A stretch of 64,000 nucleotides of DNA from Escherichia coli (lineage in GTDB: Bacteria > Pseudomonadota > Gammaproteobacteria > Enterobacterales > Enterobacteriaceae): NCBI RefSeq assembly GCF_046105845.1, contig NZ_CP151004.1. One strand, written 5' to 3'. The notes beneath the pieces were generated by a model that was not told the DNA's origin, did no database searches, and saw only the letters and a program-made list of their open reading frames with translations. Each line of letters starts with the position of its first letter. The first letter of the stretch is position 1. Shown here one piece after another: positions 1-13,322 of the stretch. The position numbers were made by a program, and so were the translations under genes.

Positions 1-273
1 GGCGACAAACGCTGTAATTACCAGCGCCGGAACAGGGCCAGGCATTTTTTTTGCTGTTTTCACCTGATTTCGTTCAATTGTTTTATGTAAGGATTTTCCC
101 ATCAACGGTAATTTTGTCACTGCACGACCGACATTTCCGGCCTGTTTTCCTAAATGAACTCTTTCGGCTGCACCATATTTTTCGACAACGGTAATGAGAT
201 GTTCACACACCGTTGACTTGCCTGAACCATCGCTACCAATAACGGCAATTAATGGAGGTGTTATTGACTGCAT
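1..273 (-). CDS. yghT: P-loop NTPase (nucleotide-kinase-like), N-terminal part; gene continues beyond window start
   Basis: Minus-strand ATG at 273..271 preceded by AAGGA SD; translation [22 protein letters not shown]... carries a Walker A motif paralogous to the two downstream ORFs; position matches K-12 gene order (recalled). Confidence 0.7.
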
Positions 274-446
274 GAATATATCCTTTAATTTAAATATCCA
301 TTAAAAATATTTATTTGGTTAATATGTTTTTATGAAAGCGTAATTCAGGTCAATGTCACAATTAACCATTGTCACAATAAGGTTGAACGGATATTCTGAG
401 CACGGACCACGTAATATTCAATACATTATTTGCTGCCGGGTTTTTC

Positions 447-1160
447 GTGAATCAACGTAATATGTCAATAATTAATTCCACGCCAGTGCGTGTTATTGCC
501 ATTGTAGGATGTGATGGTTCAGGTAAATCGACCCTCACGGCAAGCCTGGTAAATGAACTGGCAGCAAGAATGCCAACAGAACACATTTATCTCGGGCAAT
601 CGTCCGGGCGAATTGGCGAATGGATTTCACAGCTCCCTGTTATTGGCGCACCTTTTGGGCGTTATTTGCGAAGTAAAGCGGCACATGTGCACGAAAAGCC
701 CTCAACACCGCCTGGCAATATTACTGCTCTGGTTATCTATCTGCTTTCCTGCTGGCGGGCGTACAAGTTTCGCAAAATGTTGTGTAAAAGCCAGCAAGGC
801 TTTCTGCTCATCACCGACCGCTACCCGCAGGTTGAAGTGCCGGGTTTTCGCTTTGATGGCCCGCAATTGGCAAAAACCACGGGCGGTAACGGTTGGATAA
901 AAATGTTAAGGCAGCGCGAGCTGAAGCTGTACCAATGGATGGCATCTTATTTGCCCGTATTGTTGATTCGTCTTGGCATTGATGAACAAACGGCGTTTGC
1001 GCGTAAACCTGACCACCAACTGGCAGCGTTACAGGAAAAAATCGCCGTTACGCCGCAACTGACATTCAATGGTGCAAAGATCCTTGAACTGGATGGTCGG
1101 CAACCAGCCGATGAAATTCTGCAAGCGTCACTACGCGCAATTCACGCCGCGCTTTCCTGA
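447..1160 (+). CDS. yghS: P-loop NTPase, nucleotide-kinase-like (237 aa)
   Basis: ORF track; Walker A GCDGSGKST near N-terminus, DRYP motif; paralog of neighbours; GTG start at 447 (alternative ATG at 462). Confidence 0.75.
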   Translation: MNQRNMSIINSTPVRVIAIVGCDGSGKSTLTASLVNELAARMPTEHIYLGQSSGRIGEWISQLPVIGAPFGRYLRSKAAHVHEKPSTPPGNITALVIYLLSCWRAYKFRKMLCKSQQGFLLITDRYPQVEVPGFRFDGPQLAKTTGGNGWIKMLRQRELKLYQWMASYLPVLLIRLGIDEQTAFARKPDHQLAALQEKIAVTPQLTFNGAKILELDGRQPADEILQASLRAIHAALS

Positions 1161-1191
1161 TCACCAAAATGGATAGGGGATGATTTAACGA

Positions 1192-1950
1192 ATGGATGCA
1201 CTACAAACACAAACTGTTATTAGTACAACCGCGCCGCAGCCCAGCTACATTCCGGGGCTAATTGCGGTGGTCGGGTGTGATGGCACCGGTAAATCCACAC
1301 TGACCACCGACCTGGTGAAATCGCTGCAACAACACTGGCAAACCGAGCGGCGCTATCTGGGGCTGCTCTCCGGCGAAGACGGCGACAAAATCAAACGATT
1401 GCCGTTGGTTGGCGTCTGGCTGGAACGGCGACTGGCGGCCAAATCCTCGAAAACCCAAAGCATGAAAACCAAATCTCCTGCGCTATGGGCGGCGGTGATT
1501 ATGTACTGCTTCTCGCTGCGAAGAATGGCGAATCTACGCAAGGTTCAGCGACTGGCGCAAAGTGGCGTTCTGGTGGTCAGCGATCGCTTCCCGCAGGCTG
1601 AAATTTCGGGCTTTTATTATGACGGACCGGGGATTGGCGTCGAACGTGCGACCGGGAAAATCAGCATGTTTCTGGCGCAGCGCGAACGGCGTTTATACCA
1701 ACAAATGGCGCAATACCGTCCTGAATTAATCATTCGTTTGGGGATTGATATTGATACTGCCATCTCCCGCAAGCCTGACCATGACTATGCCGAGCTGCAG
1801 GACAAAATCGGTGTTATGTCGACGATTGGCTATAACGGCACAAAAATTCTTGAGATTGATTCCAGAGCGCCCTACAGCGAAGTGCTGGAACAGGCACAGA
1901 AGGCGGTTTCTCTGGTTGCCATCGTTTCTGACCGCCGAAGTTTAACTTAA
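1192..1950 (+). CDS. yghR: P-loop NTPase, nucleotide-kinase-like (252 aa)
   Basis: ORF track; Walker A GCDGTGKST, DRFP motif; paralog of yghS/yghT. Confidence 0.75.
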   Translation: MDALQTQTVISTTAPQPSYIPGLIAVVGCDGTGKSTLTTDLVKSLQQHWQTERRYLGLLSGEDGDKIKRLPLVGVWLERRLAAKSSKTQSMKTKSPALWAAVIMYCFSLRRMANLRKVQRLAQSGVLVVSDRFPQAEISGFYYDGPGIGVERATGKISMFLAQRERRLYQQMAQYRPELIIRLGIDIDTAISRKPDHDYAELQDKIGVMSTIGYNGTKILEIDSRAPYSEVLEQAQKAVSLVAIVSDRRSLT

Positions 1951-1995
1951 GGCTGGCGGGATACTTTTTACTATCAACGATAAGGTCAGGCTGAA

Positions 1996-3345
1996 TTGGC
2001 GGGTTTTAACATCAAACATTGGTTTGCAGATGGCGCGTTTCGCACCATTATTCGCAATAGCGCCTGGTTAGGCTCCAGTAATGTCGTGAGCGCCTTGCTG
2101 GGTCTGTTGGCGCTCTCGTGTGCCGGTAAAGGGATGACGCCCGCCATGTTTGGCGTACTGGTGATTGTGCAATCGTACGCCAAGTCGATCAGCGATTTTA
2201 TTAAGTTTCAGACATGGCAGCTGGTGGTTCAGTACGGAACACCAGCATTAACCAACAATAATCCGCAGCAATTCCGCAATGTCGTCTCATTTTCCTTCTC
2301 GCTGGATATCGTCAGCGGCGCGGTGGCGATTGTCGGCGGCATTGCCTTACTCCCTTTTCTTTCCCATTCATTAGGTCTGGATGACCAAAGCTTTTGGCTG
2401 GCGGCGCTGTATTGCACGCTCATTCCTTCAATGGCTTCCTCCACGCCGACCGGCATTCTGCGTGCGGTAGATCGCTTCGATTTAATTGCTGTACAGCAGG
2501 CGACGAAACCTTTTCTGCGCGCAGCGGGGAGCGTCGTAGCCTGGTATTTTGACTTTGGTTTTGCGGGCTTTGTTATTGCCTGGTACGTGTCGAATCTGGT
2601 TGGCGGCACCATGTACTGGTGGTTTGCCGTGCGCGAATTACGCTGCAGAAATATCCATAACGCCTTCAAATTGAATCTGTTTGAGTCTGCCCGACACATT
2701 AAAGGCGCGTGGAGTTTTGTCTGGTCAACCAACATTGCCCACTCCATCTGGTCGGCACGTAACTCGTGCAGCACAGTGTTGGTGGGGATCGTGTTAGGAC
2801 CCGCTGCCGCCGGGTTATTTAAAATCGCCATGACATTCTTCGACGCCGCCGGAACGCCAGCGGGTTTACTGGGTAAAAGTTTTTACCCAGAGGTGATGCG
2901 TTTAGATCCGCGCACCACCAGACCGTGGTTGTTAGGCGTGAAGTCAGGTTTACTGGCGGGCGGAATCGGTATTCTGGTGGCGCTCGCGGTGTTGATCGTC
3001 GGCAAGCCGCTCATTTCGCTGGTGTTTGGCGTTAAGTATCTCGAAGCGTATGACCTGATTCAGGTGATGCTGGGCGCAATTGTGATTTCGATGCTGGGCT
3101 TCCCACAGGAGTCATTGCTATTGATGGCGGGAAAACAGCGTGCTTTTCTCGTGGCGCAAACCATCGCCTCAATCGGCTACATCGTATTGCTGTTCATGTT
3201 CTGTCATCTGTTTGGCGTGCTGGGGGCTGCATTTGCTTACTTCGCTGGGCAATGTCTGGATGTGGTGCTCTCGCTAATTCCAACCTTAAAGGCATTTTTT
3301 CAGCGCCATTCCTTGCTTTATAACGCAGCCGGAGAGAAATCCTGA
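1996..3345 (+). CDS. yghQ: Polytopic membrane protein, Wzx/MOP-type polysaccharide or lipid flippase-like (start uncertain, TTG at 1996)
   Basis: 449-aa ORF, highly hydrophobic with multiple predicted TM segments; position after yghR as in K-12 (recalled). Confidence 0.65.
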   Translation: MAGFNIKHWFADGAFRTIIRNSAWLGSSNVVSALLGLLALSCAGKGMTPAMFGVLVIVQSYAKSISDFIKFQTWQLVVQYGTPALTNNNPQQFRNVVSFSFSLDIVSGAVAIVGGIALLPFLSHSLGLDDQSFWLAALYCTLIPSMASSTPTGILRAVDRFDLIAVQQATKPFLRAAGSVVAWYFDFGFAGFVIAWYVSNLVGGTMYWWFAVRELRCRNIHNAFKLNLFESARHIKGAWSFVWSTNIAHSIWSARNSCSTVLVGIVLGPAAAGLFKIAMTFFDAAGTPAGLLGKSFYPEVMRLDPRTTRPWLLGVKSGLLAGGIGILVALAVLIVGKPLISLVFGVKYLEAYDLIQVMLGAIVISMLGFPQESLLLMAGKQRAFLVAQTIASIGYIVLLFMFCHLFGVLGAAFAYFAGQCLDVVLSLIPTLKAFFQRHSLLYNAAGEKS

Positions 3346-4169
3346 TGATGAGAAAATATTTCCCGCTTGAGGCTAGCGAGCGTCTATTTGTTGCGATTGA
3401 AGAAGATGATGTCGTTGATGCACAGGTCAGTTTGCCGCCGACTATCGCACTAAGTTGTACCACCGAAATCATCCATGATAATTACGCGTTATGCCTGAAA
3501 TTCTGGCTGGATGGTGTTAATCGTCAGGAGCTACTGCGTTTAATCCGCAAACAGGCGAAAGGCGATGAGCTGACGACAGACGAGCGCAAAAAGTATAAAT
3601 ACATGCGAGCGCGCTACAAGCACCTGCGTTTTGCGCAACGGCTGTATTTAAAGAAGCATCAGGCCGGATTTTTATTCGGCAAAACGACCGTTTTTTTGGG
3701 GCGTTTTCAGGACGGCTTTCGTAACGGTAAGAAAAATATTGTGTCGTATTACGGCAACCTGTTACGGGTTTATTTAAGCTCTTCGGTCTGGTCGTTGGTG
3801 AACTATTCATTACGCCATAGCCAGTTAGAAAGCGTAAGCGGTTTTATTGCCTATCGGCAAAAGCAAATGCATACCCTGAAAGAGATAATTGCCAAACCGC
3901 GACTAACTGGCAGGGAATTTCATGATGTGCGAAAAATCATCAGCCAGCAGGTTTCTTATTACGACACCCTAAGATCGCTTGATCCTGAAAATAAAGAGGC
4001 GTTACAGATTTCCCGCTTCCTCGCCGCCATTAATGGCCTGATGGGGGATAAACACGACGACATGGTGGCGGATGATATGGAAAACCGCCAGTCGTATGAT
4101 GCACCGGTGGCGCTGGATAGCGATATTCGCCAGCGCTTAGAGCTGCTGATTTCGCGTTTTCCGCTATAA
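3345..4169 (+). CDS. Hypothetical soluble protein (274 aa), basic, no recognisable motif
   Basis: ORF track; ATG overlaps yghQ stop (TGATG) suggesting translational coupling. Confidence 0.6.
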   Translation: MMRKYFPLEASERLFVAIEEDDVVDAQVSLPPTIALSCTTEIIHDNYALCLKFWLDGVNRQELLRLIRKQAKGDELTTDERKKYKYMRARYKHLRFAQRLYLKKHQAGFLFGKTTVFLGRFQDGFRNGKKNIVSYYGNLLRVYLSSSVWSLVNYSLRHSQLESVSGFIAYRQKQMHTLKEIIAKPRLTGREFHDVRKIISQQVSYYDTLRSLDPENKEALQISRFLAAINGLMGDKHDDMVADDMENRQSYDAPVALDSDIRQRLELLISRFPL

Positions 4170-4177
4170 CCGGAGCA

Positions 4178-4741
4178 ATGATGTCATCTCGTTTGATTAT
4201 TGCGCTGATTATCATGCTCTTAGCCCCGGGTGTGCAGGCACACAATTTCGTCACTGGCAAAACGGTTACCCCCGTTTATATCCAGGAAGGCGGTGAGTTG
4301 CTTCTGAATAGCGACGACGAAATTCACTACCAAAAGTGGAACAGCACACAGCTGGCGGGAAAAGTCCGCATTATTCAGTATATCGCCGGGCGTAAGTCGG
4401 CGAAGAAAAAGAACTCACTGTTAATTAAAGCGGTTGAAGCGGCAAACTTTCCGCAGGATCGTTTTCAGCCCACCACCATTGTGAACACCGATGATGCCAT
4501 CTTTGGTACTGGCTATTTTGTCGTTGGCAAAATCGAAAAAAATAAACGCCGCTATCCGTGGGCGCAATTCGTTATTGACGGCAATGGACTGGGACGCGTT
4601 GCCTGGCGGTTGCCGGAGCAGAGTTCAACCATTCTGGTGCTGAATAAAGACGGGCAAATTCAGTGGGCAAAGGACGGCAGCCTGACGCCGGAAGAGGTAG
4701 ATCATGTCATTGCGCTGGCGCAGAAACTGATCAATGAATAA
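4178..4741 (+). CDS. Secreted/periplasmic protein, YtfJ-like (187 aa)
   Basis: N-terminal signal peptide MMSSRLIIALIIMLLAPGVQA; overall similarity to the YtfJ periplasmic family as I recall it. Confidence 0.6.
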   Translation: MMSSRLIIALIIMLLAPGVQAHNFVTGKTVTPVYIQEGGELLLNSDDEIHYQKWNSTQLAGKVRIIQYIAGRKSAKKKNSLLIKAVEAANFPQDRFQPTTIVNTDDAIFGTGYFVVGKIEKNKRRYPWAQFVIDGNGLGRVAWRLPEQSSTILVLNKDGQIQWAKDGSLTPEEVDHVIALAQKLINE

Positions 4742-4771
4742 AAAATTCAAAGGATTGAGGGCGTTAGTGAG

Positions 4772-5842
4772 ATGAAGCTGGTTGAACACTACATCATGCG
4801 TGGTACGCGCCGTCTGGTGTTGATTATCGTCGGTTTTCTGATCTTTATTTTCGCCAGCTACTCCGCACAGCGTTATCTGGCCGAAGCGGCAAATGGGACA
4901 TTAGCTCTTGATGTTGTGCTGGATATCGTTTTCTACAAAGTGCTGATTGCACTGGAGATGCTGTTACCTGTTGGACTATATGCTTCAGTTGGCGTGACGC
5001 TAGGGCAAATGTATACCGACTCGGAAATTACCGCTATCTCCGCGGCGGGGGGCAGTCCGGGACGCTTGTACAAAGCCGTTCTTTATCTGGCGATACCGCT
5101 AAGTATTTTTGTCACCCTTCTGTCGATGTATGGTCGTCCGTGGGCTTATGCGCAGATTTATCAATTGGAGCAACAGTCACAGTCGGAGCTGGATGTTCGC
5201 CAGTTGCGGGCAAAGAAATTTAACACTAACGATAACGGACGAATGATCCTTTCGCAGACGGTTGATCAGGATAATAATCGCCTGACTGACGCGCTGATTT
5301 ATACTTCTACTGCCAATCGAACCCGCATTTTCCGCGCCCGTTCGGTTGATGTGGTTGACCCATCACCTGAGAAACCGACTGTTATGTTGCACAACGGCAC
5401 TGCCTATCTTCTCGATCATCAGGGGCGTGACGACAACGAACAGATCTACCGTAATCTGCAATTACATCTGAATCCGCTGGATCAAAGCCCTAACGTCAAA
5501 CGCAAAGCGAAATCGGTCACGGAGCTGGCGCGCTCCGTCTTTCCAGCCGATCATGCCGAACTGCAATGGCGACAAAGCCGTGGCCTGACAGCATTGTTGA
5601 TGGCGCTGCTGGCCATTTCATTAAGTCGGGTAAAACCGCGGCAAGGGCGATTTTCAACATTATTGCCACTGACGTTGCTGTTTATTGCCATTTTTTATGG
5701 CGGCGACGTCTGCCGTACGCTGGTGGCTAACGGCGCGATTCCCCTCATTCCTGGTTTGTGGTTAGTACCCGGACTCATGCTAATGGGCCTGCTGATGCTG
5801 GTCGCACGCGACTTCTCTTTGCTGCAGAAATTTTCCCGATGA
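4772..5842 (+). CDS. LptF-like permease (YjgP/YjgQ family) paralog
   Basis: 356-aa membrane protein; N-terminal TM block, central periplasmic domain, C-terminal TM block; conserved SEITAI motif as in LptF/LptG. Confidence 0.7.
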   Translation: MKLVEHYIMRGTRRLVLIIVGFLIFIFASYSAQRYLAEAANGTLALDVVLDIVFYKVLIALEMLLPVGLYASVGVTLGQMYTDSEITAISAAGGSPGRLYKAVLYLAIPLSIFVTLLSMYGRPWAYAQIYQLEQQSQSELDVRQLRAKKFNTNDNGRMILSQTVDQDNNRLTDALIYTSTANRTRIFRARSVDVVDPSPEKPTVMLHNGTAYLLDHQGRDDNEQIYRNLQLHLNPLDQSPNVKRKAKSVTELARSVFPADHAELQWRQSRGLTALLMALLAISLSRVKPRQGRFSTLLPLTLLFIAIFYGGDVCRTLVANGAIPLIPGLWLVPGLMLMGLLMLVARDFSLLQKFSR

Positions 5843-6918
5843 ATGTTTTCAGTCGCTATTTAATCCGTCATCTCTTTCTCGGTTTTGCCGCCGCCGCAGG
5901 ATTATTGCTGCCGCTTTTTACCACCTTCAACCTGATTAACGAACTGGATGATGTCAGCCCGGGCGGTTATCGCTGGACTCAGGCGGTGCTGGTGGTGCTG
6001 ATGACCTTACCGCGCACACTGGTCGAACTTTCGCCGTTTATCGCATTATTGGGAGGGATTGTTGGCCTGGGGCAGTTATCGAAAAACAGTGAGCTTACCG
6101 CTATTCGCAGCACTGGGTTTTCTATCTTCCGTATTGCACTGGTGGCGCTGGTTGCCGGGATATTGTGGACTGTTTCGTTAGGCGCGATAGATGAGTGGGT
6201 GGCGTCGCCATTGCAGCAACAGGCGCTGCAAATCAAATCGACTGCCACCGCGTTGGGGGAGGACGATGACATTACCGGCAATATGCTTTGGGCCAGGCGC
6301 GGTAATGAATTTGTGACGGTGAAATCGCTGAACGAGCAGGGCCAGCCTGTGGGCGTGGAGATATTTCATTATCGCGACGATCTCTCGCTCGAATCCTACA
6401 TTTTTGCACGCAGTGCCACCATTGAAGACGACAAAACGTGGATCCTGCATGGTGTGAATCATAAAAAATGGTTGAATGGCAAAGAAACGCTGGAAACATC
6501 AGATAATCTTGCCTGGCAATCGGCCTTCACCAGTATGGATCTTGAAGAGTTATCGATGCCGGGGAATACTTTTTCTGTCCGTCAGCTTAATCATTACATC
6601 CATTATTTGCAGGAAACCGGGCAACCCAGCAGCGATTACCGCCTTGCACTGTGGGAAAAACTGGGGCAACCCATCTTAACTCTGGCGATGATTTTGCTGG
6701 CTGTGCCGTTTACCTTTAGTGCCCCGCGTTCGCCTGGGATGGGTAGCCGTCTCGCTGTAGGCGTCATCGTGGGCTTACTCACCTGGATCAGCTATCAAAT
6801 CATGGTCAATCTGGGATTGCTATTTGCGTTGAGCGCACCTGTTACCGCGCTCGGTTTACCGATAGCGTTTGTGCTGGTGGCGTTGAGCCTGGTGTATTGG
6901 TATGACAGTCAACATTAA
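5839..6918 (+). CDS. LptG-like permease (YjgP/YjgQ family) paralog
   Basis: ATG at 5839 overlaps upstream stop (ATGA); MNVFSRYLIRH... with SELTAI motif; same topology as LptG. Confidence 0.7.
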   Translation: MNVFSRYLIRHLFLGFAAAAGLLLPLFTTFNLINELDDVSPGGYRWTQAVLVVLMTLPRTLVELSPFIALLGGIVGLGQLSKNSELTAIRSTGFSIFRIALVALVAGILWTVSLGAIDEWVASPLQQQALQIKSTATALGEDDDITGNMLWARRGNEFVTVKSLNEQGQPVGVEIFHYRDDLSLESYIFARSATIEDDKTWILHGVNHKKWLNGKETLETSDNLAWQSAFTSMDLEELSMPGNTFSVRQLNHYIHYLQETGQPSSDYRLALWEKLGQPILTLAMILLAVPFTFSAPRSPGMGSRLAVGVIVGLLTWISYQIMVNLGLLFALSAPVTALGLPIAFVLVALSLVYWYDSQH

Positions 6919-6952
6919 ACCCGCCGTGGCGCAGCACCACAGCGGGCTCACA

Positions 6953-8125
6953 TTACTGCTTCAGAGTAGCAAATGCCTGAATGATGGCATCGATTTGCTC
7001 ACGACTGTGGGCAGCGTTTACGCTACAGCGCAGCAGCGTGATGCCTGCAGGCGCGGCAGGTGGCAGGATAAGATTCACATAAACGCCCAGCGAAATAAGC
7101 TCGCGCCAGATGCGTAAACCTTCCTCTTTCGAACCGATTATTACTGGCACTACCGGGCTAATATGTGAACTTAACTCGTAACCCAGTTTTTGCAGACCGT
7201 CATACAGATGGTTGGCGTTATCCATCAGCTTTTGCCGCAGCTCTGGTTGTGAGGCAATGGTTCTTAACGACGAGCGCACGGTCGCAATGCAGGACGGAGA
7301 AGGAGAGGCGGTAAAAATATACGGGCGGCTGCCGTAGCGCAGCACTTCCATCGCTTCCGAACCGACAGCAAAACCGCCAATCGAGGCCAGACTTTTACTG
7401 AAAGTACCAACGATAATATCCACATCATCTTCAACGCCAACGGCTTCAGCCAGTCCGCGCCCCATTGCGCCTAACACGCCAAACGAATGCGCTTCATCGA
7501 CAATCAAATAACCACCGAGACGACGTTTGATATCAACAATTTCCGCTAACGGCGCAACGTCACCGAGCATGCTGTAGATACCCTCAACGATGATAATCGC
7601 CTCTTTCGCCCGTTCACCGAGGCGAACCATGCGCCGTTCCAGATCTTTAGCATCGTTATGGCGGAAACGAATAATTTCCGCGCCACCGAGAGAACAGGCG
7701 TCATAAATACTGGCGTGGCTGTCGGCATCCAGTAACACCACGGCGTTATGGTCGGCAAGTGCGCTGATGACGCCTAAATTAGCGGTATAACCGGTTGAAA
7801 AAACGATAGCGGTAGGGCGATTAAAAAACTCGGCGATCTCTTTCTCTAACGCCAGATGCGGCGCATAACTGCCGTTTGCCATACGAGAACCGGTGGTGCC
7901 GGTGCCTTGGGCCGCTAACGCTGCCTGACCTTCGGCGATGGCATCATGATTGAAGGTTAATCCGAGATAATTATTGGTCCCGGCCAGAATCACTTTTTTA
8001 TTGCCGATCCGACCTTCGGTGGCGGAATACACTTCATCAATACAGGTACCAAACGGCGTTAACCCGTTGTCACTAAATTGCAGTCGCTCGCCAGCAAGGC
8101 GCGCATATTTATCGTATAGCCCCAT
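6953..8125 (-). CDS. PLP-dependent alpha-oxoamine synthase (serine palmitoyltransferase / BioF / Kbl family), 390 aa
   Basis: Motifs NNYLGL, GTFSKSL (PLP-lysine), DEAHSFG; start ATG overlaps upstream ACP stop (TAATG). Confidence 0.8.
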   Translation of the reverse strand: MGLYDKYARLAGERLQFSDNGLTPFGTCIDEVYSATEGRIGNKKVILAGTNNYLGLTFNHDAIAEGQAALAAQGTGTTGSRMANGSYAPHLALEKEIAEFFNRPTAIVFSTGYTANLGVISALADHNAVVLLDADSHASIYDACSLGGAEIIRFRHNDAKDLERRMVRLGERAKEAIIIVEGIYSMLGDVAPLAEIVDIKRRLGGYLIVDEAHSFGVLGAMGRGLAEAVGVEDDVDIIVGTFSKSLASIGGFAVGSEAMEVLRYGSRPYIFTASPSPSCIATVRSSLRTIASQPELRQKLMDNANHLYDGLQKLGYELSSHISPVVPVIIGSKEEGLRIWRELISLGVYVNLILPPAAPAGITLLRCSVNAAHSREQIDAIIQAFATLKQ

Positions 8126-8373
8126 TATTTATTCTCCAGCCATGGAAGTAGTGTTTCCATTAATTGCGCAGGGGTTTTGACATCCAGCAGAATATTAATA
8201 GGAATGGAAATATCGAATCTGTCTTCCAGCATCATTAAGAGATCCATCACTTTGATCGACTCCAGGCCAAGATCGTTGACGAGATCGCTGTCGGGCTTAA
8301 TTTCCACACCGTTTTCGACCAAATCCTGTAAACAGGAAAGGATGTAATCCATTACTATTTCACGATTTACCAT
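8125..8373 (-). CDS. Acyl carrier protein (82 aa)
   Basis: DLGLESIKVMDL phosphopantetheine-attachment motif; small acidic protein. Confidence 0.8.
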   Translation of the reverse strand: MVNREIVMDYILSCLQDLVENGVEIKPDSDLVNDLGLESIKVMDLLMMLEDRFDISIPINILLDVKTPAQLMETLLPWLENK

Positions 8374-8404
8374 AGAAACGTTAACACACCTTTAAACAAG
8401 ACAA

Positions 8405-9319
8405 TCAAAATAGCCCGTTGCGTAATGCGTGTTCCAGGCTAATCCCGGGAAACCAATTAATATCTTCAGAAATACGGTTATTACTTGCCGACCAGTCGGC
8501 ATGAGTTAATTCACGGATTTTCGAACGAGTCAGCATCGGTTCTTTACCCGCCAGACGGCTCAACGCGGTACTGATATCCGCAAGGCAGGTGAGTAGCGAC
8601 AGAGGAATACCGACCATCCGCACGGAACCACAACGGGCGTCGGCGGCAAGCTGTCTTACGCGTTGCCAGTCATAGCCGCCGGCGACGCCATCGCATAATT
8701 CATAGGTTTGCGTCTGTACAGTTTCGGCGCTTAACCACTGCCCCACGGCTTGCGCGAAATCGGTGACGTGCAGGAAAGAGAGCTGTGTCTCTGGCGCACC
8801 AAGTCGTGGCAGCAGGCCGCGCAGCATCCAGTCAAACAGCGGTTTTAACTCTTTATCGCCGGGACCATACACGGCTGTCGGGCGAAAAACGCCCAGCGTA
8901 ATTTCATCAGCCATTGCAGTCAGCCGTTGTTCGGCGACGTGTTTGGAATTTGCGTACCAGGAGAGTTCGGGATGGCGCGCCGCCAGCGAAGAGATAAACA
9001 GAAAACGTTGGCAAAAGCCGCTCTCTTTTGCCGCTTGCATCAGTCGCAGGCTGCCGTCAACGTTACAGCGGGTAAAAATCTCTTCTTTGTGCCCGCGCAC
9101 TTGCCCGGCGCAATGGACCACCGCGCTGGCTCCGGCAACCAGTTCGCTAAGTGAATGAGTATCTTCCAGAGAACCGCGCACCCAGATGAGATTGTCATTG
9201 ACGTGAGCGCGGGCAGTACGCGTCAATGTGCGAACGTGAAAGCCGCGGGCGAGCAGGTTATCGATAATATATTTACCGATAAACCCGGTAGCGCCCGTCA
9301 CCGCGACAGTTTGATTCAT
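8405..9319 (-). CDS. NAD(P)-dependent epimerase/dehydratase-family reductase (SDR fold), ~304 aa
   Basis: Rossmann motif VAVTGATGFIGKYII just after ATG at 9319; ATG overlaps upstream stop (ATGA); longer ORF-track start at 9529 rejected. Confidence 0.7.
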   Translation of the reverse strand: MNQTVAVTGATGFIGKYIIDNLLARGFHVRTLTRTARAHVNDNLIWVRGSLEDTHSLSELVAGASAVVHCAGQVRGHKEEIFTRCNVDGSLRLMQAAKESGFCQRFLFISSLAARHPELSWYANSKHVAEQRLTAMADEITLGVFRPTAVYGPGDKELKPLFDWMLRGLLPRLGAPETQLSFLHVTDFAQAVGQWLSAETVQTQTYELCDGVAGGYDWQRVRQLAADARCGSVRMVGIPLSLLTCLADISTALSRLAGKEPMLTRSKIRELTHADWSASNNRISEDINWFPGISLEHALRNGLF

Positions 9320-11037
9320 GCCAGGGATTCCTGCACATGAAGGCTTGCAGCATAAGCCTTCTGATAACGTTTTTTCGCTTCCGCACGGGCAGGCTTGCCG
9401 GAGGACGTTCGGGGAATACTGTGGGGCGGCAACAGATCGATAGCCGCTGTTACGCCAAATTCGCTTTGGATCCGTGCTACCAGCGCGTGGATAAGCTGCC
9501 CACGACGTTCTTCGTCGCTGATCCGACACTGGATCTGCAAAATGATTTTTTCCTGGGCGGTAACAAAAGCAATCGCATCGCCAGAATGAATTTCCGGTTC
9601 CTGTTCCGCAATATATTCAATATCCTGCGGCCAGATATTACGGCCACGAATAATAATCAGATCTTTAATGCGCCCGGTGACATACAGATAACCGTCCAGC
9701 AGATAACCGAGGTCGCCGGTGTCTAACCAGCCCGTCGCGGCAATCTCGTCTTGTGAAATCTGGTCGCCAAAGTAACCGCTCATCAGGCTAGGGCCGGAGA
9801 TGCAAATATGGCCTACCACACGTTCCGCGGCAGGTATACCTGCTTCATTGCGGATTTCAATGCCATGTTCTGGCAACGCTTTACCGCAGTTGACGAAAGT
9901 CGATACGGCGCGTGTTTCAGCACCCGGCGCGACGGCTTTGCCCTGATATTCAAGGATGTCGCGATCCACTTCGTTAACCACAACCCCGGAGGCTTCATCA
10001 GAGAAGCTGACAGCCAGCGCATTTTCTGCCAGTCCGTAGCACGGCATGAACGTTTTATCGTCAAAGTTAACCTGACGGAAACATTCAGCGAATTGATGGA
10101 GTTGTTCTGCGGAGATCGGCTCAGCACCAATACCAGCGACGCGCCAGCAGGATAGATCCAGTTCAGCGAGATCTTTTTCATTCACGCGGCGCTGGCACAA
10201 TTCATAGCCAAACGGCGGCGCAACGGAAACGGTGCCGCGATTTTTACTGATCAATTTAAGCCATTGCAGAGGACGCATGGCAAAATCCTGAGTGCGCAAA
10301 TAATCTACTGAGAGCTGCGTGGCGACGGGGGTCAGGAGAAAGCCGACCAGTCCCATATCATGGTAGAAAGGCAGCCAGGAGACGCAGCGGTCGCCAGGGC
10401 GTAATTTAATGCCATCGTGGCTTATAGCACGTAGATTAGCCATCACTTCGCGATGGGTGATAATGACGCCACGGGGAAAACGGGTGCTGCCGGAGGTGTA
10501 CTGGAGGTAGGCGATATCGTTCGGAACTGGATGCTGGAGTGCAACATCGGCTTCCGGTAATGCCTTAAACCAGGCGTGGCTTAAAACATGTAATTCGGGG
10601 TTGTTATGCGTAGCGGCATTGACCAGTGGCAACCACTCATCACCAGTGATAATGGCTGCGGGCTGGCAACTTGTCAGTAAACCCTGCAGTTTGGCGCTCC
10701 AGGAATCCCGCTGACCGACGCCCATTGGAATCGCCAACGGGACGGCGACTAAGCCGGCATACTGGCAGGAAAAAAAAGCCTCTACGAACCCGCTACTGGT
10801 TTCGGCAATCAGCGCCACGCGATCGCCTTTTTTCAGGTTCAGCGATAACAACCGCTTCGCACCAGCTTCGGCACGCGCTTTTAACGTCTGATATTCCAGT
10901 TGATCTTCAAGTTGGCAACGTCTGTCATAAAAATTCATTCCGGCGCTACTCAGAGCGGCGTAGTCCAAAGCATCAACCAGCGTTGGAAAATCGGCATAGC
11001 GCATAGGTAGGGAATGCGTAAAGATTTTATTAGACAT
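9316..11037 (-). CDS. Fatty acyl-AMP ligase / acyl-ACP synthetase (AMP-binding superfamily), ~573 aa
   Basis: AMP-binding signature YTSGSTRFPRGV; N-terminus MSNKIFTHSLPMRYADF typical of FAAL-type enzymes; ATG at 11037. Confidence 0.75.
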   Translation of the reverse strand: MSNKIFTHSLPMRYADFPTLVDALDYAALSSAGMNFYDRRCQLEDQLEYQTLKARAEAGAKRLLSLNLKKGDRVALIAETSSGFVEAFFSCQYAGLVAVPLAIPMGVGQRDSWSAKLQGLLTSCQPAAIITGDEWLPLVNAATHNNPELHVLSHAWFKALPEADVALQHPVPNDIAYLQYTSGSTRFPRGVIITHREVMANLRAISHDGIKLRPGDRCVSWLPFYHDMGLVGFLLTPVATQLSVDYLRTQDFAMRPLQWLKLISKNRGTVSVAPPFGYELCQRRVNEKDLAELDLSCWRVAGIGAEPISAEQLHQFAECFRQVNFDDKTFMPCYGLAENALAVSFSDEASGVVVNEVDRDILEYQGKAVAPGAETRAVSTFVNCGKALPEHGIEIRNEAGIPAAERVVGHICISGPSLMSGYFGDQISQDEIAATGWLDTGDLGYLLDGYLYVTGRIKDLIIIRGRNIWPQDIEYIAEQEPEIHSGDAIAFVTAQEKIILQIQCRISDEERRGQLIHALVARIQSEFGVTAAIDLLPPHSIPRTSSGKPARAEAKKRYQKAYAASLHVQESLA

Positions 11038-11408
11038 ATACACCACGAAAAAATTGGATATCAAAAATAAAATGACAATAATGCGGTGGATTATATAGGC
11101 ATAAAAGATAAATGAGATAGTATTTTCATCAGTGTGAAAATGAACATTGATTTAAATAATGAGTTTGAGTTTTTTTGTTTTTATTGTGAATGATATTTAA
11201 TTTATGAATATATTAAGAATAAGCCTTGTCCGGTCGCCTTAAATCGACAAAAGGCATTGTGGCGCTTCTGTGTAGTCTCTAACCTTATCGTAATCATTAA
11301 TAAATACTATTTATTCGTCGTTTGTATTCATTGGGTTGATTATTAAGGTGCCGTTCGTTGCTGTTGCAACCTGTTTGTCACCGTTAATTATTTGTTACCC
11401 ACAGAACT
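11038..11408. promoter_or_regulatory. AT-rich divergent intergenic region between the FAAL operon and yghO (promoters inferred, not mapped)
   Basis: 371 bp with long A/T runs between divergently oriented start codons. Confidence 0.4.
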
Positions 11409-12551
11409 ATGGAATGCGATCTGCTGATGATTAAAATTGAAAAAGTAATTAATAAAAATGACCTTAAGGCATTTATCGCTTTTCCGTCATCACTTTATCC
11501 CGACGATCCAAACTGGATACCCCCTTTATTCATTGAACGCAACGAGCATTTGTCTGCGAAAAATCCGGGGACGGACCATATCATCTGGCAGGCGTGGGTG
11601 GCAAAAAAAGCGGGGCAGATAGTTGGGCGTATTACCGTGCAAATAGATACCTTGCACCGCGAGCGTTACGGTGAAGATACCGGTCATTTCGGCATGATTG
11701 ACGCCATTGATGATCCGCAGGTTTTTGCCGCGTTGTTTGGCGCAGCGGAAGCGTGGTTGAAGTCACAAGGTGCAAGTAAGATCAGCGGTCCTTTCAGCCT
11801 GAATATCAATCAGGAAAGCGGATTACTGATTGAAGGTTTCGATACACCACCCTGTGCGATGATGCCGCACGGTAAACCGTGGTATGCCGCGCATATTGAA
11901 CAATTGGGTTATCACAAAGGCATTGATTTACTAGCGTGGTGGATGCAGCGAACCGATCTCACTTTCTCTCCGGCGCTAAAAAAACTGATGGATCAGGTGC
12001 GTAAGAAGGTGACCATTCGCTGCATCAATCGCCAGCGGTTTGCCGAAGAGATGCAGATCCTGCGTGAGATTTTCAACTCTGGCTGGCAGCACAACTGGGG
12101 ATTTGTGCCGTTTACCGAACATGAATTCGCGACTATGGGCGATCAACTTAAATATCTGGTGCCGGACGATATGATCTACATCGCTGAGATTGATTCTGCA
12201 CCCTGCGCGTTTATTGTTGGCTTGCCAAACATCAACGAGGCGATTGCCGATCTGAACGGATCGCTCTTTCCCTTCGGCTGGGCAAAATTGCTGTGGCGTT
12301 TAAAAGTCAGCGGTGTGCGTACTGCGCGAGTACCGCTGATGGGCGTGCGGGACGAGTATCAGTTTAGCCGCATCGGCCCGGTGATTGCGCTGTTATTGAT
12401 TGAAGCCTTACGCGATCCGTTTGCCCGCCGGAAGATCGATGCGCTGGAAATGTCATGGATCCTCGAAACCAATACAGGCATGAATAACATGCTGGAACGC
12501 ATTGGGGCAGAGCCGTACAAGCGTTACCGATTGTATGAAAAGCAGATTTGA
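11409..12551 (+). CDS. yghO: YghO-like protein (380 aa), candidate acyltransferase; function unverified
   Basis: ORF track; position between lipid operon and glcC as for K-12 yghO (recalled); no motif I can assign confidently. Confidence 0.6.
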   Translation: MECDLLMIKIEKVINKNDLKAFIAFPSSLYPDDPNWIPPLFIERNEHLSAKNPGTDHIIWQAWVAKKAGQIVGRITVQIDTLHRERYGEDTGHFGMIDAIDDPQVFAALFGAAEAWLKSQGASKISGPFSLNINQESGLLIEGFDTPPCAMMPHGKPWYAAHIEQLGYHKGIDLLAWWMQRTDLTFSPALKKLMDQVRKKVTIRCINRQRFAEEMQILREIFNSGWQHNWGFVPFTEHEFATMGDQLKYLVPDDMIYIAEIDSAPCAFIVGLPNINEAIADLNGSLFPFGWAKLLWRLKVSGVRTARVPLMGVRDEYQFSRIGPVIALLLIEALRDPFARRKIDALEMSWILETNTGMNNMLERIGAEPYKRYRLYEKQI

Positions 12552-12557
12552 TGGCAG

Positions 12558-13322
12558 TCACCCCTGCTTCATCTCCAGCGGCACCGCCGAGCGAATCAAA
12601 TGGTGGCCTTCCAGCTCGATATCGTGGAGATTCTTTTTCACGGTCCGCACATGATCGCGTGCTGCGCGCTGGGCGACGTGCGGCAGCCGCTGCAACACCG
12701 CGTTGTAGATCCGCGCATGCTGGCGATCGATCTGCTTTTTTTGCTGTGGTCGATGGTAGAGATTATTTACGCTGGCAAACACTGAATTAAACATCAGATC
12801 GGTCAATGATTGCAGCGTAAACACCAACACCTGATTGTGAGAAGCCTGACAAATGGCGAGATGGAAAGCGTGATCCAACTGCGCATGTTCGATCAGCGAA
12901 ATCTCTTTGTTGTTCTCACTGGCGGCGAGCATTTTTTCATAACAGCGGGTTATCACAACAAAATCAGCCTGGGTTCCCAGCGTTGCCGCAAGCCTTGCCG
13001 ATTCCCCCTCCAGCAATGCGCGAACGTCGAGCAGATCGTACAGCGTTCGCGGCTGCGTGCTGAACAGATGAATTAGCGGGCTGGTATCCTGCACCCGATT
13101 AAGCCGTGCGACACGAGAATCGCGACCCTGCGCTGTTTCAATAATCCCGCGCCCGCGCAGCACGGTCAGCCCTTCACGCAGTGCGGAGCGTGAGAAGCCG
13201 AGCTTTTCACACAGTCGACGTTCCGAGGGAAGCGGCTGACCGACCTTCAGTACGCCGTCGATAATTAACCGTTCGATACTCTCTGCAACCACTTCGCAAA
13301 TAGGGCGACGTTCATCTTTCAT
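12558..13322 (-). CDS. glcC: GntR-family transcriptional activator of the glc operon
   Basis: MKDERRPICEVVAESIERLIIDGVLKVGQPLPSERRL... matches GlcC; start at internal ATG 13322 (254 aa). Confidence 0.9.
   Translation of the reverse strand: MKDERRPICEVVAESIERLIIDGVLKVGQPLPSERRLCEKLGFSRSALREGLTVLRGRGIIETAQGRDSRVARLNRVQDTSPLIHLFSTQPRTLYDLLDVRALLEGESARLAATLGTQADFVVITRCYEKMLAASENNKEISLIEHAQLDHAFHLAICQASHNQVLVFTLQSLTDLMFNSVFASVNNLYHRPQQKKQIDRQHARIYNAVLQRLPHVAQRAARDHVRTVKKNLHDIELEGHHLIRSAVPLEMKQG

What the first reader, a model, noticed from the sequence alone, without database searches (positions are those of the whole stretch)
1996..4741. Flippase, unknown protein and YtfJ-like periplasmic protein co-transcribed with the LptFG paralogs
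yghQ (polytopic, Wzx-like), a 274-aa protein of unknown function (start overlaps the yghQ stop) and a signal-peptide-bearing YtfJ-like protein sit directly upstream of the permease pair on the same strand. Together they look like a membrane-translocation and periplasmic-handling module. The 274-aa protein has no motif I can recognise and is the least characterised component.
Basis: inference. Interest (0 to 1): 0.55.

Follow-up and report, generated by a model that had tools for sequence, protein, structure and literature searches.

The report
CHAD-like protein in E. coli sphingolipid locus
The three genes are real and sit in E. coli's little-known sphingolipid locus; the 'unknown' 274-aa protein is a diverged member of the CHAD polyphosphate-binding fold that always travels with a Wzx-like flippase and a pair of thymidylate-kinase-like kinases, which points to a so far undescribed phosphorylated head-group pathway for a bacterial sphingolipid.

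Summary
yghQ (1996-3345), a 274-aa ORF (3345-4169, start overlaps the yghQ stop in TGATG) and a YtfJ-family gene (4178-4741) are packed with lptF/lptG paralogs, with no convincing terminator.

The context is sphingolipid, not LPS. The convergent operon is spt-acpR-cerR-aasR plus yghO. These are E. coli genes already shown or proposed to make ceramide, and LptF2G2 are published sphingolipid exporters in Caulobacter.

What I add:
- In 80 genomes from four proteobacterial orders its conserved partners are yghQ (directly upstream in 64) and 2-3 dTMP-kinase-like paralogs (YghS/R/T; 70 loci; fused in Bombella). They are not YtfJ or LptFG, which occur only in Enterobacterales.
- The YtfJ-like protein is a periplasmic thioredoxin fold without cysteines.

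Best model (inferred): the kinases and the CHAD-like protein build or hold a phosphate-rich ceramide head group, YghQ flips it, and LptB-F2G2 export it.

The locus itself is known. The CHAD/kinase/flippase module is a new variant.

The parts
1..273 (-). 5' part of yghT (cut by the window edge), the third dTMP-kinase-like P-loop paralog, divergently transcribed from yghS
   Evidence: Mapping to RefSeq annotation of L001. The sequence shows the ATG at 273-271. A YghS-like hit on the opposite strand lies upstream of yghS in most Enterobacterales loci.
369..397 (+). Promoter-like site (TTGTCA-17-TATTCT) in the AT-rich yghT-yghS intergenic region; candidate operon promoter
   Evidence: consensus match only; the number of such matches equals chance. 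GC is 0.39 in this stretch.
447..1160 (+). yghS, dTMP-kinase-superfamily P-loop protein (not the housekeeping dTMP kinase)
   Evidence: Weak TIGR00041 hit below the cut-off. The ortholog profile hits thymidylate kinase structures at E 1e-5. GCDGSGKST, DRYPQ and RKPDH are invariant.
1192..1950 (+). yghR, second dTMP-kinase-superfamily paralog; likely forms a heteromer with YghS
   Evidence: The two domains are fused in one ORF in five Bombella/Parasaccharibacter loci.
1996..3345 (+). yghQ, full-length Wzx-like MOP-superfamily flippase
   Evidence: Pfam Polysacc_synt 7e-9 and Polysacc_synt_3 1.6e-7. NCBIfam MOP flippase hit below the cut-off. Hydrophobic segments. Directly upstream of the CHAD-like gene in 64 of 80 loci.
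3345..4169 (+). 274-aa ORF (UniProt name Ybl138): diverged CHAD-fold protein, predicted cytoplasmic
4178..4741 (+). YtfJ-family paralog: secreted thioredoxin-fold protein without cysteines; an Enterobacterales-specific addition
4772..5842 (+). LptF paralog (LptF2)
   Evidence: TIGR04407 317 bits, above the cut-off of 230. Function is by analogy with Caulobacter LptF2 (bioRxiv 10.64898/2026.04.12.717747).
5839..6918 (+). LptG paralog (LptG2), overlapping lptF2 by 4 nt
   Evidence: TIGR04408 306 bits, above the cut-off of 240.
6953..8125 (-). spt, serine palmitoyltransferase (convergent operon)
   Evidence: RefSeq annotation. The E. coli BL21 enzyme ECD_02854 was assayed in PMC9386255.
8125..8373 (-). 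acpR, specialised acyl carrier protein
   Evidence: PMC9386255.
8405..9319 (-). cerR/epi-like NAD-dependent reductase
   Evidence: PMC9386255 (ECD_02852).
9316..11040 (-). aasR, acyl-AcpR synthetase (fatty acyl-AMP ligase)
   Evidence: PMC9386255 (ECD_02851).
11409..12551 (+). yghO, N-acyltransferase assigned as the bacterial ceramide synthase homolog
   Evidence: PMC9386255 names yghO (ECD_02850) as aca/cerS.

Best explanation
The region is the export and head-group half of the E. coli sphingolipid locus.

Shown or published: the convergent operon (spt, acpR, cerR, aasR) with yghO encodes the ceramide pathway. LptF2/G2 paralogs export anionic sphingolipid in Caulobacter, using the housekeeping LptB.

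Shown here: the 274-aa protein is a diverged CHAD domain, predicted cytoplasmic. It keeps the phosphate-chain-contacting motif. It is evolutionarily locked to the Wzx-like flippase YghQ and to two or three dTMP-kinase-like P-loop paralogs (YghS, YghR, YghT).

Inferred mechanism:
1. At the cytoplasmic face, YghS/YghR (probably a heteromer, with YghT as a third paralog) phosphorylate ceramide or a ceramide-linked head group. Both keep their catalytic motifs, so they may act one after the other.
2. The CHAD-like protein binds the resulting phosphate-rich (di- or oligophosphate) group, or a phosphate-chain donor, and presents it to YghQ.
3. YghQ flips the lipid to the periplasmic leaflet. MOP flippases normally handle diphosphate-linked lipids.
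4. LptB-LptF2G2 extract it towards the outer membrane.
5. The cysteine-free, thioredoxin-fold YtfJ paralog is an Enterobacterales-specific periplasmic accessory whose role is undefined.

My sub-probabilities: sphingolipid context 0.85; CHAD fold and homology 0.9; binding of a phosphate chain or phosphorylated head group 0.45; kinases acting on the lipid 0.4.
For: Locus identity. RefSeq annotation and the literature (for PMC9386255; for the LptF2G2 preprint; for the Caulobacter flippase CC_1166 of the same Pfam/InterPro family).

CHAD assignment.
- The profile of 42 family members hits 6qv5 as the best PDB sequence match (E 4e-4). K85/R88/K92/R95 align with H-xx-R-xxx-R-xx-R of CHAD, and H193/R196 and G..HD align with the second signature.
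- In CtCHAD, residues of that H-xx-R-xxx-R motif (H253, R256, R260) contact polyP, and mutating them weakens binding (PMC6537752).
- R88, R95, D123, H193, R196 and D238 are invariant across 42 members down to 18% identity.
- Pfam CHAD is detected in diverged members.

Linkage.
- yghQ lies directly upstream on the same strand in 64 of 80 loci, from Enterobacterales, Rhodanobacteraceae, Sphingomonadales and Acetobacteraceae.
- Kinase paralogs lie within 10 kb in 70 of 80 loci.
- The two kinases are naturally fused in Bombella.
- An unrelated APH-type kinase is fused to two copies of the domain in P0233/P0236.

Taxonomic range. It matches the known spt-bearing Proteobacteria. spt is in the same locus in 36 of 43 Enterobacterales and 5 of 5 Rhodanobacteraceae.

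Where yghQ is absent, the kinase + CHAD-like pair sits among enzymes that modify phosphates of outer-membrane glycolipids: PmrG-, ArnT-, ArnC- and LmtA-like enzymes and a PmrAB-like system.

E. coli's locus lacks the Caulobacter head-group genes. CpgB is a DAGK-type kinase, not a P-loop kinase, so another head-group route is needed.

Both YghS and YghR keep the P-loop, DRY and RKPDH motifs.
Against: - No lipid product of this locus has been reported from wild-type E. coli in the papers I could search.
- No binding or kinase assay exists for any of these proteins.
- The E. coli protein itself does not reach any Pfam CHAD score, and only part of the second CHAD basic motif is retained.
- In Sphingomonadales and Acetobacteraceae the module is not next to spt, so the tie to sphingolipid there rests only on taxonomic co-occurrence.
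- More distant family members sit in unrelated contexts.
- The kinases could act on a nucleotide or another small molecule rather than on the lipid.
- Co-transcription is inferred only from gene packing.
Confidence: 0.5

Rival explanations
1. Polyphosphate-centred module. YghS/YghR(/YghT) are a PPK3-like heteromeric polyphosphate kinase and Ybl138 is its polyP-binding CHAD partner, as in the Sulfolobus ppx-sixA-dTMPK-dTMPK-CHAD operon. PolyP would be made or used as a phosphoryl donor, or even exported. The sphingolipid genes would then be neighbours rather than the substrate pathway.
For: - PPK3 is a heteromer of two dTMPK paralogs encoded with a CHAD protein and a SixA-type phosphatase (PMC12995831).
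- Here there are two adjacent dTMPK-superfamily paralogs with a CHAD-like gene. They are fused in Bombella, like two-domain PPK2.
- In Bombella a histidine-phosphatase (SixA/PhoE/CobC superfamily) gene overlaps the yghQ start.
- PolyP is the only demonstrated ligand of CHAD domains.
Against: - There is no ppx or ppk in any of the loci examined.
- Both kinase paralogs keep their catalytic motifs, whereas the PPK3 regulatory subunit is inactive and lacks Walker B.
- The PDB match to the cPPK3 homolog 2plr/5h70 is restricted to the P-loop, E 0.27-0.46.
- A MOP flippase has no known role with free polyP.
- The distribution follows sphingolipid producers, and E. coli already has PPK1.
Confidence: 0.15
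2. Ybl138 has kept the CHAD fold but not the ligand. It would be a helical adaptor, chaperone or regulator of the YghQ flippase (or of the kinases), with no phosphate-chain binding.
For: - Translational coupling and strict adjacency to yghQ.
- The E. coli sequence is below every Pfam CHAD threshold.
- Only part of the second basic motif is retained, and there are family-specific invariant Asp and His residues (D123, H105, H237).
Against: - The invariant residues are precisely the Arg/Lys/His positions that align with the polyP-contacting CHAD motif.
- Association with kinases persists where yghQ is absent.
- Fusions are to kinases, not to transporters.
Confidence: 0.15
3. YghQ is an ordinary Und-PP-glycan (O-antigen or exopolysaccharide type) flippase, as the RefSeq name 'lipopolysaccharide biosynthesis protein' implies. 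The three genes would serve a polysaccharide pathway.
For: Pfam Polysacc_synt and a weak MOP/WzxC-like match. A glycosyltransferase lies next to the CHAD-like gene in one betaproteobacterial MAG, and ArnC/ArnT-like genes in Carnimonas.
Against: - No glycosyltransferase, sugar-nucleotide or polymerase gene occurs in the E. coli locus or in the Sphingopyxis, Luteibacter or Bombella loci examined.
- The matches to characterised Wzx families are far below their cut-offs (35 bits against 273).
- yghQ sits immediately after spt in the same direction in Rhodanobacteraceae.
Confidence: 0.07
4. The operon is a silent or decaying remnant in E. coli with no present function.
For: - The K-12 lineage has lost the region from mid-yghQ to yghO.
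- About a quarter of complete genomes lack >=80% coverage, and one strain has an IS1 insertion.
- No phenotype is reported beyond a 2-fold chlorhexidine MIC shift for the truncated K-12 yghQ.
Against: Strong purifying selection on the 274-aa gene, dN/dS 0.06-0.09. All genes are intact in 4090 of 5426 genomes. Synteny is conserved across Enterobacterales. E. coli SPT, AcpR and AasR are enzymatically active.
Confidence: 0.05

Closest known systems
CHAD domain proteins (PF05235; structures 6qv5 RcCHAD, 3e0s CtCHAD, 6rn5 PptA)
   Different: It is too diverged for Pfam to detect in E. coli. It has extra invariant Asp and His residues. There is no ppk, ppx or CYTH neighbour. Its constant neighbour is a MOP flippase, and its phyletic range follows sphingolipid producers. 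The ligand is untested.
Caulobacter crescentus sphingolipid locus CC_1152-CC_1168 (spt, acpR, aasR, cerR, bcerS, cpgABC, flippase CC_1166, LptF2/G2/C2)
   Same: The same five ceramide-synthesis genes, a Polysacc_synt-family putative flippase, and LptF/LptG paralogs without their own LptB.
   Different: E. coli lacks cpgB (DAGK-type ceramide kinase), cpgC (Tam41-like), cpgA, the MobA-like and calcineurin-like genes, and LptC2. Instead it has three dTMPK-like kinases, the CHAD-like protein and a YtfJ paralog. None of these is described among the Caulobacter locus genes in the papers I read.
PPK3, the heteromeric dTMPK-like polyphosphate kinase of Sulfolobus (saci_2019/2020) with its CHAD and SixA neighbours
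   Same: Two adjacent dTMPK-superfamily paralogs plus a CHAD-type protein. A histidine-phosphatase neighbour occurs in Bombella. There is evidence for a heteromer (natural fusion).
   Different: No PPX. Both paralogs look catalytically competent. There is no specific sequence affinity to the solved cPPK3 homolog. A membrane flippase is present. The activity is untested.
Wzx/MurJ-type MOP flippases
   Same: Pfam Polysacc_synt membership and a polytopic membrane protein. The known substrates are diphosphate-linked lipids, which fits a phosphate-rich lipid head group.
   Different: Very distant from characterised Wzx, MurJ and SpoVB families, and there are no glycan-assembly genes in the locus. 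The proposed lipid carrier is ceramide rather than undecaprenyl.
YtfJ/HI0045 family (PF09695) and periplasmic thioredoxin-fold proteins (DsbE/CcmG/ResA/TlpA)
   Same: A full-length family match above the curated cut-off, a signal peptide and a thioredoxin-like fold.
   Different: There are no cysteines at all, so it cannot be a thiol-disulfide oxidoreductase. It is a locus-specific paralog found only in Enterobacterales versions of the module.

Membership tests
CHAD domain (PF05235) | Fold of two four-helix bundles related by pseudo-twofold symmetry | tested here: met
CHAD domain (PF05235) | Signature basic motifs (H-xx-R-xxx-R/K-xx-R in bundle 1; H-xx-R...K/R and LG...D in bundle 2) that contact polyP | tested here: met
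   In the profile alignment to 6qv5, K85/R88/K92/R95, H193/R196 and G234..D238 align with the CHAD motifs. R88, R95, H193, R196 and D238 are invariant in 42 members. The later K/R/Y positions of the second motif are not kept.
CHAD domain (PF05235) | Significant match to the Pfam model | tested here: inconclusive
   The E. coli protein shows no CHAD hit even at E<=10. Among 42 family members, 3 match at <=1e-3 and 13 at <=0.1, best 2.5e-5. UniProt names orthologs CHAD domain-containing.
CHAD domain (PF05235) | Binds inorganic polyphosphate | not testable with these tools
   This needs ITC, GCI or a gel-shift assay with purified protein.
MOP/Wzx-like flippase (Polysacc_synt, PF01943) | Profile match and a polytopic membrane topology | tested here: met
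   PF01943 7.2e-9 and PF13440 1.6e-7. Multiple hydrophobic segments. The NCBIfam MOP equivalog scores only 35 bits against a cut-off of 273, so the protein belongs to no characterised subfamily.
YtfJ family (TIGR01626 / PF09695) | Full-length match above the curated cut-off; a secreted protein | tested here: met
   215 bits against a cut-off of 151. PF09695 1.9e-59. An N-terminal hydrophobic segment and a VQA|H site.
Thiol-disulfide oxidoreductases of the thioredoxin fold (DsbE/ResA type) | CxxC (or at least one catalytic Cys) | tested here: not met
LptF / LptG permeases | Matches above the equivalog cut-offs, as a pair of adjacent genes | tested here: met
   TIGR04407 317 bits (cut-off 230) and TIGR04408 306 bits (cut-off 240). 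They are a second copy beside the housekeeping pair. The substrate (LPS or sphingolipid) was not tested here. By published analogy it is sphingolipid.
PPK3 (heteromeric dTMPK-like polyphosphate kinase) | Two adjacent dTMPK-superfamily paralogs encoded with a CHAD protein | tested here: met
   dTMPK superfamily; adjacency with the CHAD-like gene; fusion.
PPK3 (heteromeric dTMPK-like polyphosphate kinase) | One catalytic and one inactive regulatory subunit; PPX in the operon | tested here: not met
   Both paralogs keep the P-loop, DRY and RKPDH motifs. No ppx occurs in the loci examined.
PPK3 (heteromeric dTMPK-like polyphosphate kinase) | Membership of the PPK3 clade; polyP kinase activity | not testable with these tools
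   No Saci_2019/2020 sequences were available. The PDB homolog 2plr/5h70 matched only at the P-loop.
Proteobacterial sphingolipid locus (Caulobacter type) | spt + acpR + aasR + cerR + N-acyltransferase clustered, with LptF2/G2 and a Polysacc_synt flippase | tested here: met
   Annotation and synteny. The E. coli enzymes were assayed in PMC9386255. The UTI89 locus is shown in the preprint.
Proteobacterial sphingolipid locus (Caulobacter type) | cpgABC-type head-group genes (DAGK-like ceramide kinase and others) | tested here: not met
   None is annotated in the E. coli locus. CpgB is a GGDG/DAGK-type kinase unrelated to YghR/S.

The most novel reading that the evidence does not exclude
The dTMPK-like kinases extend a phosphate chain on ceramide (ceramide di-, tri- or oligophosphate). 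This would be a lipid-anchored short polyphosphate. The CHAD-like protein would measure or hold it, a MOP flippase would flip it, and LptB-F2G2 would export it. That would give many Enterobacterales, Sphingomonadales and acetic acid bacteria a previously unknown class of highly anionic outer-membrane lipid.
Probability: 0.12. Interest if true: 0.85.

Novelty: new variant of a known kind. Interest (0 to 1): 0.55.

Why it matters
Most E. coli strains other than K-12 carry a complete sphingolipid locus, yet the lipid it makes, its head group and how it crosses the inner membrane are not known.

Caulobacter, the model for bacterial sphingolipids, builds its anionic head group with cpgABC genes that E. 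coli lacks. This work identifies a four-to-five-gene module: two or three dTMP-kinase-like proteins, a MOP flippase and a CHAD-like phosphate-chain binder. It is conserved from Enterobacterales to Sphingomonadales and acetic acid bacteria. That gives a concrete candidate for an alternative head-group and flipping pathway.

It also extends the CHAD fold beyond polyphosphate granules. And it places a second 'dTMPK pair + CHAD' association beside the recently described PPK3.

All of this can be tested directly in a genetically easy organism.

Tried and rejected
- Direct family searches with the 274-aa protein found nothing: Pfam, NCBIfam and a PDB sequence search with the Enterobacterales-only profile. 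Only the wider 42-member profile and the structure comparison revealed CHAD.
- The 42-member alignment was too diverse for the genome scan, so a narrower one was used.
- I considered that YghR/S might be homologs of the Caulobacter ceramide kinase CpgB. I rejected this because CpgB is a DAGK-type GGDG kinase.
- I looked for specific similarity of YghS/YghR to the PPK3 catalytic-subunit structure. Only P-loop-level matches appeared (E 0.27-0.46), while ordinary thymidylate kinases scored better. The PPK3 link therefore stays an analogy.
- The PPK3 paper's supplements were not available.
- A Pho-box search in the window gave chance-level matches and none in the yghT-yghS intergenic region.
- The promoter and terminator scans were at the shuffle expectation, and Rfam found nothing in 1-13000. 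I therefore have no direct support for the transcript boundaries.
- Distant family members (P0140, P0184, P0200) sit in unrelated contexts without kinases or flippase, so the linkage holds only for the orthologous subfamily.
- The literature on K-12 yghQ (chlorhexidine, silkworm screen) concerns the truncated pseudogene and adds no mechanism.
- No paper in the searchable library combines 'CHAD domain' with 'sphingolipid'.


Full report
**What is there.** The window is an E. coli chromosome segment running yghT / yghS-yghR-yghQ ... yghO-glcC. The + strand carries these genes:

| Gene | Coordinates |
|---|---|
| yghS | 447-1160 |
| yghR | 1192-1950 |
| yghQ | 1996-3345 |
| 274-aa ORF | 3345-4169 |
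| YtfJ-family ORF | 4178-4741 (RefSeq start 4181) |
| LptF paralog | 4772-5842 |
| LptG paralog | 5839-6918 |

The junctions are tight:
- The yghQ stop and the next ATG share a base (TGATG), with a GGAG 9 nt upstream.
- 8 nt and a GGAG precede the YtfJ-like gene.
- 30 nt precede lptF.
- lptF and lptG overlap by 4 nt.

No terminator-like site stands out, but the promoter and terminator scans do not exceed chance. A single operon from yghS to lptG is therefore an inference from packing, not a demonstration. The block is present at >=80% coverage in 4090 of 5426 complete E. coli genomes. K-12-type genomes have an IS5 at a deletion that removes everything from mid-yghQ to yghO. This is why the locus is unfamiliar.

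**Context.** Convergent with this operon are spt, an acyl carrier protein, an NAD-dependent reductase and a fatty acyl-AMP ligase, followed by yghO.
- These E. coli B genes (ECD_02850-02854) have been treated as a sphingolipid gene set. The E. coli SPT, AcpR and AasR have been assayed (PMC9386255).
- In Caulobacter, LptF and LptG paralogs in the sphingolipid locus form a complex and bind the housekeeping LptB. They become essential only when the anionic sphingolipid is made. That preprint draws the E. coli UTI89 locus alongside.
- A Polysacc_synt-family 'potential flippase' (CC_1166) is also part of the Caulobacter locus.

So the general reading 'lipid translocation machinery next to LptFG paralogs' is right. 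The lipid is a sphingolipid, and that much is already in the literature.

**The 274-aa protein.** It has no Pfam or NCBIfam hit and no hydrophobic segment. It is under strong purifying selection, with dN/dS 0.06-0.09.

Sequence evidence agrees.
- A profile of 42 family members finds the CHAD structure 6qv5 as its best PDB match (E 4e-4).
- In that alignment K85-xx-R88-xxx-K92-xx-R95 lies on CHAD's H-xx-R-xxx-R-xx-R. H193-xx-R196 lies on the second H-xx-R. G234..H237-D238 lies on LG..ND.
- In the CtCHAD-polyP crystal structure, the H253/R256/R260 triad of that motif contacts the phosphate chain, and mutating it weakens binding (PMC6537752).
- R88, R95, D123, H193, R196 and D238 are invariant over 42 members down to 18% identity.
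- Pfam CHAD becomes detectable in diverged members: 3 of 42 at <=1e-3 and 13 of 42 at <=0.1, plus faint hits.
- UniProt already names many orthologs 'CHAD domain-containing protein', whereas the E. coli entries are 'Ybl138' or uncharacterised.

I conclude that the protein is a diverged, stand-alone CHAD domain, predicted cytoplasmic. Whether it binds polyphosphate is untested.

**Who it travels with.** A scan of one genome per species gave 140 confirmed loci, and the best 80 were analysed. They break down as follows:

| Group | Loci |
|---|---|
| Enterobacterales | 43 |
| Rhodanobacteraceae | 5 |
| Sphingomonadales | 20 |
| Acetobacteraceae | 9 |
| Others | 3 |

Mapping the window's twelve proteins onto them gave these results:
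- A yghQ homolog lies directly upstream on the same strand, within 150 nt, in 64 of 80. Most exceptions have truncated flanks.
- YghS/YghR-type kinases lie within 10 kb in 70 of 80, and two or more of them in 66.
- The ceramide genes lie within 10 kb only in Enterobacterales (about 36 of 43) and Rhodanobacteraceae (5 of 5).
- The YtfJ-like gene (41 of 43) and LptF2/G2 (37-39 of 43) occur only in Enterobacterales.

In Sphingopyxis the module is a self-contained run of three kinases, yghQ and the CHAD-like gene, behind an ECF sigma/anti-sigma pair.

In five Bombella/Parasaccharibacter genomes the two kinase domains are fused into one ORF of about 490-527 codons. Both halves keep GCDGSGKS, DRYPQ and RKPDH. 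A histidine-phosphatase gene overlaps the yghQ start there.

In two roughly 980-aa metagenomic proteins an unrelated APH-type kinase is fused to two copies of the domain.

Where yghQ is missing, the kinase + CHAD-like pair sits among enzymes that modify phosphates of outer-membrane glycolipids. In Carnimonas these are PmrG-like, ArnT-like and ArnC-like enzymes and a PmrAB-like system. In a betaproteobacterial MAG they are a GT4 glycosyltransferase and an LmtA-like lipid A 1-phosphate methyltransferase. More distant family members have unrelated neighbours.

The evolutionary unit is therefore kinases + flippase + CHAD-like protein, not flippase + unknown + YtfJ + LptFG.

**The kinases.** YghS and YghR (and YghT, cut by the window edge) are RefSeq-labelled 'dTMP kinase' or 'ATP-binding protein'. 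They score far below the dTMP kinase cut-off. Ortholog profiles place them in the thymidylate-kinase superfamily, with PDB hits at 1e-5 to 3e-6. They are not related to the Caulobacter ceramide kinase CpgB, which is a DAGK-type enzyme.

A recent paper shows that a pair of dTMPK paralogs encoded with a CHAD protein and a SixA phosphatase forms the heteromeric polyphosphate kinase PPK3 of Sulfolobus (PMC12995831). The parallel is striking: a dTMPK pair, a CHAD protein, a histidine phosphatase in Bombella, and fusion evidence for a heteromer. It is incomplete, though:
- No ppx is present.
- Both paralogs look catalytically competent.
- There is no specific similarity to the solved cPPK3 homolog.

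**Most likely mechanism.** This is inferred, with overall confidence about 0.5.
1. Ceramide is made at the cytoplasmic face by the convergent operon and YghO.
2. YghS/YghR (with YghT) add phosphate(s) to it or to its head group.
3. The CHAD-like protein binds the phosphate-rich group, or a phosphate-chain donor, and hands the lipid to YghQ.
4. YghQ, a member of a superfamily whose known substrates are diphosphate-linked lipids, flips it.
5. LptB-LptF2G2 extract it for transport to the outer membrane.
6. The YtfJ paralog is a lineage-specific periplasmic accessory.

The model also accounts for what is missing. The E. coli-type locus lacks the cpgABC head-group genes of Caulobacter, yet Caulobacter needs LptF2G2 only when its sphingolipid is anionic.

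Rival readings, scored separately, are a polyphosphate-centred PPK3-like module, a ligand-less adaptor for YghQ, an ordinary polysaccharide flippase, and a decaying locus.

**Novelty.** The locus as a sphingolipid locus, its LptFG paralogs and the presence of a putative flippase are published. Some orthologs of the 274-aa protein are auto-labelled CHAD in UniProt. I could not find the following in the searchable literature:
- the identification of the E. coli protein as CHAD-like;
- its strict linkage to a MOP flippase and a dTMPK-like kinase pair across sphingolipid-producing Proteobacteria;
- the resulting head-group hypothesis.

I rate it a new variant of a known kind, of moderate interest. 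It turns an open question, what E. coli's sphingolipid is and how it is flipped, into a set of simple experiments.

Noticed in passing
window 1996-3345 versus L002 (NZ_CP157088.1) 6097-8291: In K-12-type genomes yghQ is truncated and an IS5 sits where the CHAD-like gene, ytfJ paralog, lptF2G2, spt, acpR, cerR and aasR would be. The laboratory strain therefore lacks the whole sphingolipid locus while keeping yghT/S/R and yghO.
   Followed up: partly
window 354-378: Direct repeat TGTCACAAT twice, 16 bp apart, in the AT-rich yghT-yghS divergent intergenic region and overlapping the best promoter-like site. It may be an operator. It is not a Pho box.
   Followed up: partly
L075, L077, L078, L082, L083 (about 10820-12400, minus strand): In Bombella/Parasaccharibacter the YghS-like and YghR-like kinases are fused in one open reading frame of about 490-527 codons with both P-loops intact. 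In L075 a histidine-phosphatase-family gene (7868-8563) overlaps the yghQ start.
   Followed up: yes
L041 10007-11766; L047 9152-10816; L074 5525-8669: Luteibacter and a gammaproteobacterial MAG carry two copies of the CHAD-like gene. They are tandem in Luteibacter, and in the MAG a kinase gene lies between them. P0122 is a 564-aa tandem-domain fusion of it.
   Followed up: partly
L041 3455-4213; L020 5946-6725: An OlsC/LpxO-like lipid acyl 2-hydroxylase lies between the kinases and aasR in Luteibacter. One also lies 4 kb from an orphan CHAD-like gene in Pluralibacter. This may be the 2-hydroxylase of the ceramide acyl chain.
   Followed up: no
L020, L026 (Pluralibacter) around 10001-10804: An orphan copy of the CHAD-like gene, with an N-terminal extension of about 25 aa. 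It is not accompanied by yghQ, the kinases or spt within 10 kb, and it lies next to a BCCT transporter.
   Followed up: partly
L051 5008-13136; L073 9938-13700: The kinase + CHAD-like pair occurs without a flippase but alongside other envelope genes. In Carnimonas these are PmrG-like phosphatase, ArnT-like and ArnC-like enzymes and a PmrAB-like two-component system. In a betaproteobacterial MAG they are a GT4 glycosyltransferase and an LmtA-like lipid A phosphate methyltransferase.
   Followed up: partly
L049 4705-5974: In Sphingopyxis an ECF sigma factor and anti-sigma factor pair lies immediately upstream of the kinase-kinase-kinase-yghQ-CHAD-like operon. This hints at control by envelope stress.
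   Followed up: no
protein P0033: A 280-aa E. coli database protein is 81% identical to the 274-aa protein over its whole length, yet it is named GspM and carries Pfam T2SSM. This is probably a chimeric or mis-called gene model.
   Followed up: no
window 447-1160 and 1-273; RefSeq names in L001: YghS and YghT are named 'dTMP kinase' in RefSeq although they score 24-31 bits against the dTMP kinase model (cut-off 83). This is likely over-annotation of a paralogous family.
   Followed up: partly
window 8405-9529 (minus strand): The mechanical ORF for the cerR-like reductase extends to a GTG at 9529 (374 aa). RefSeq starts it at 9319 (304 aa), which abuts aasR. The long form would overlap aasR by about 210 nt and is probably not used.
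   Followed up: no
hit H5, NZ_CP119402.1: Strain MRE162 carries an IS1 insertion inside the yghQ-lptG block. This is another independent disruption of the locus.
   Followed up: no
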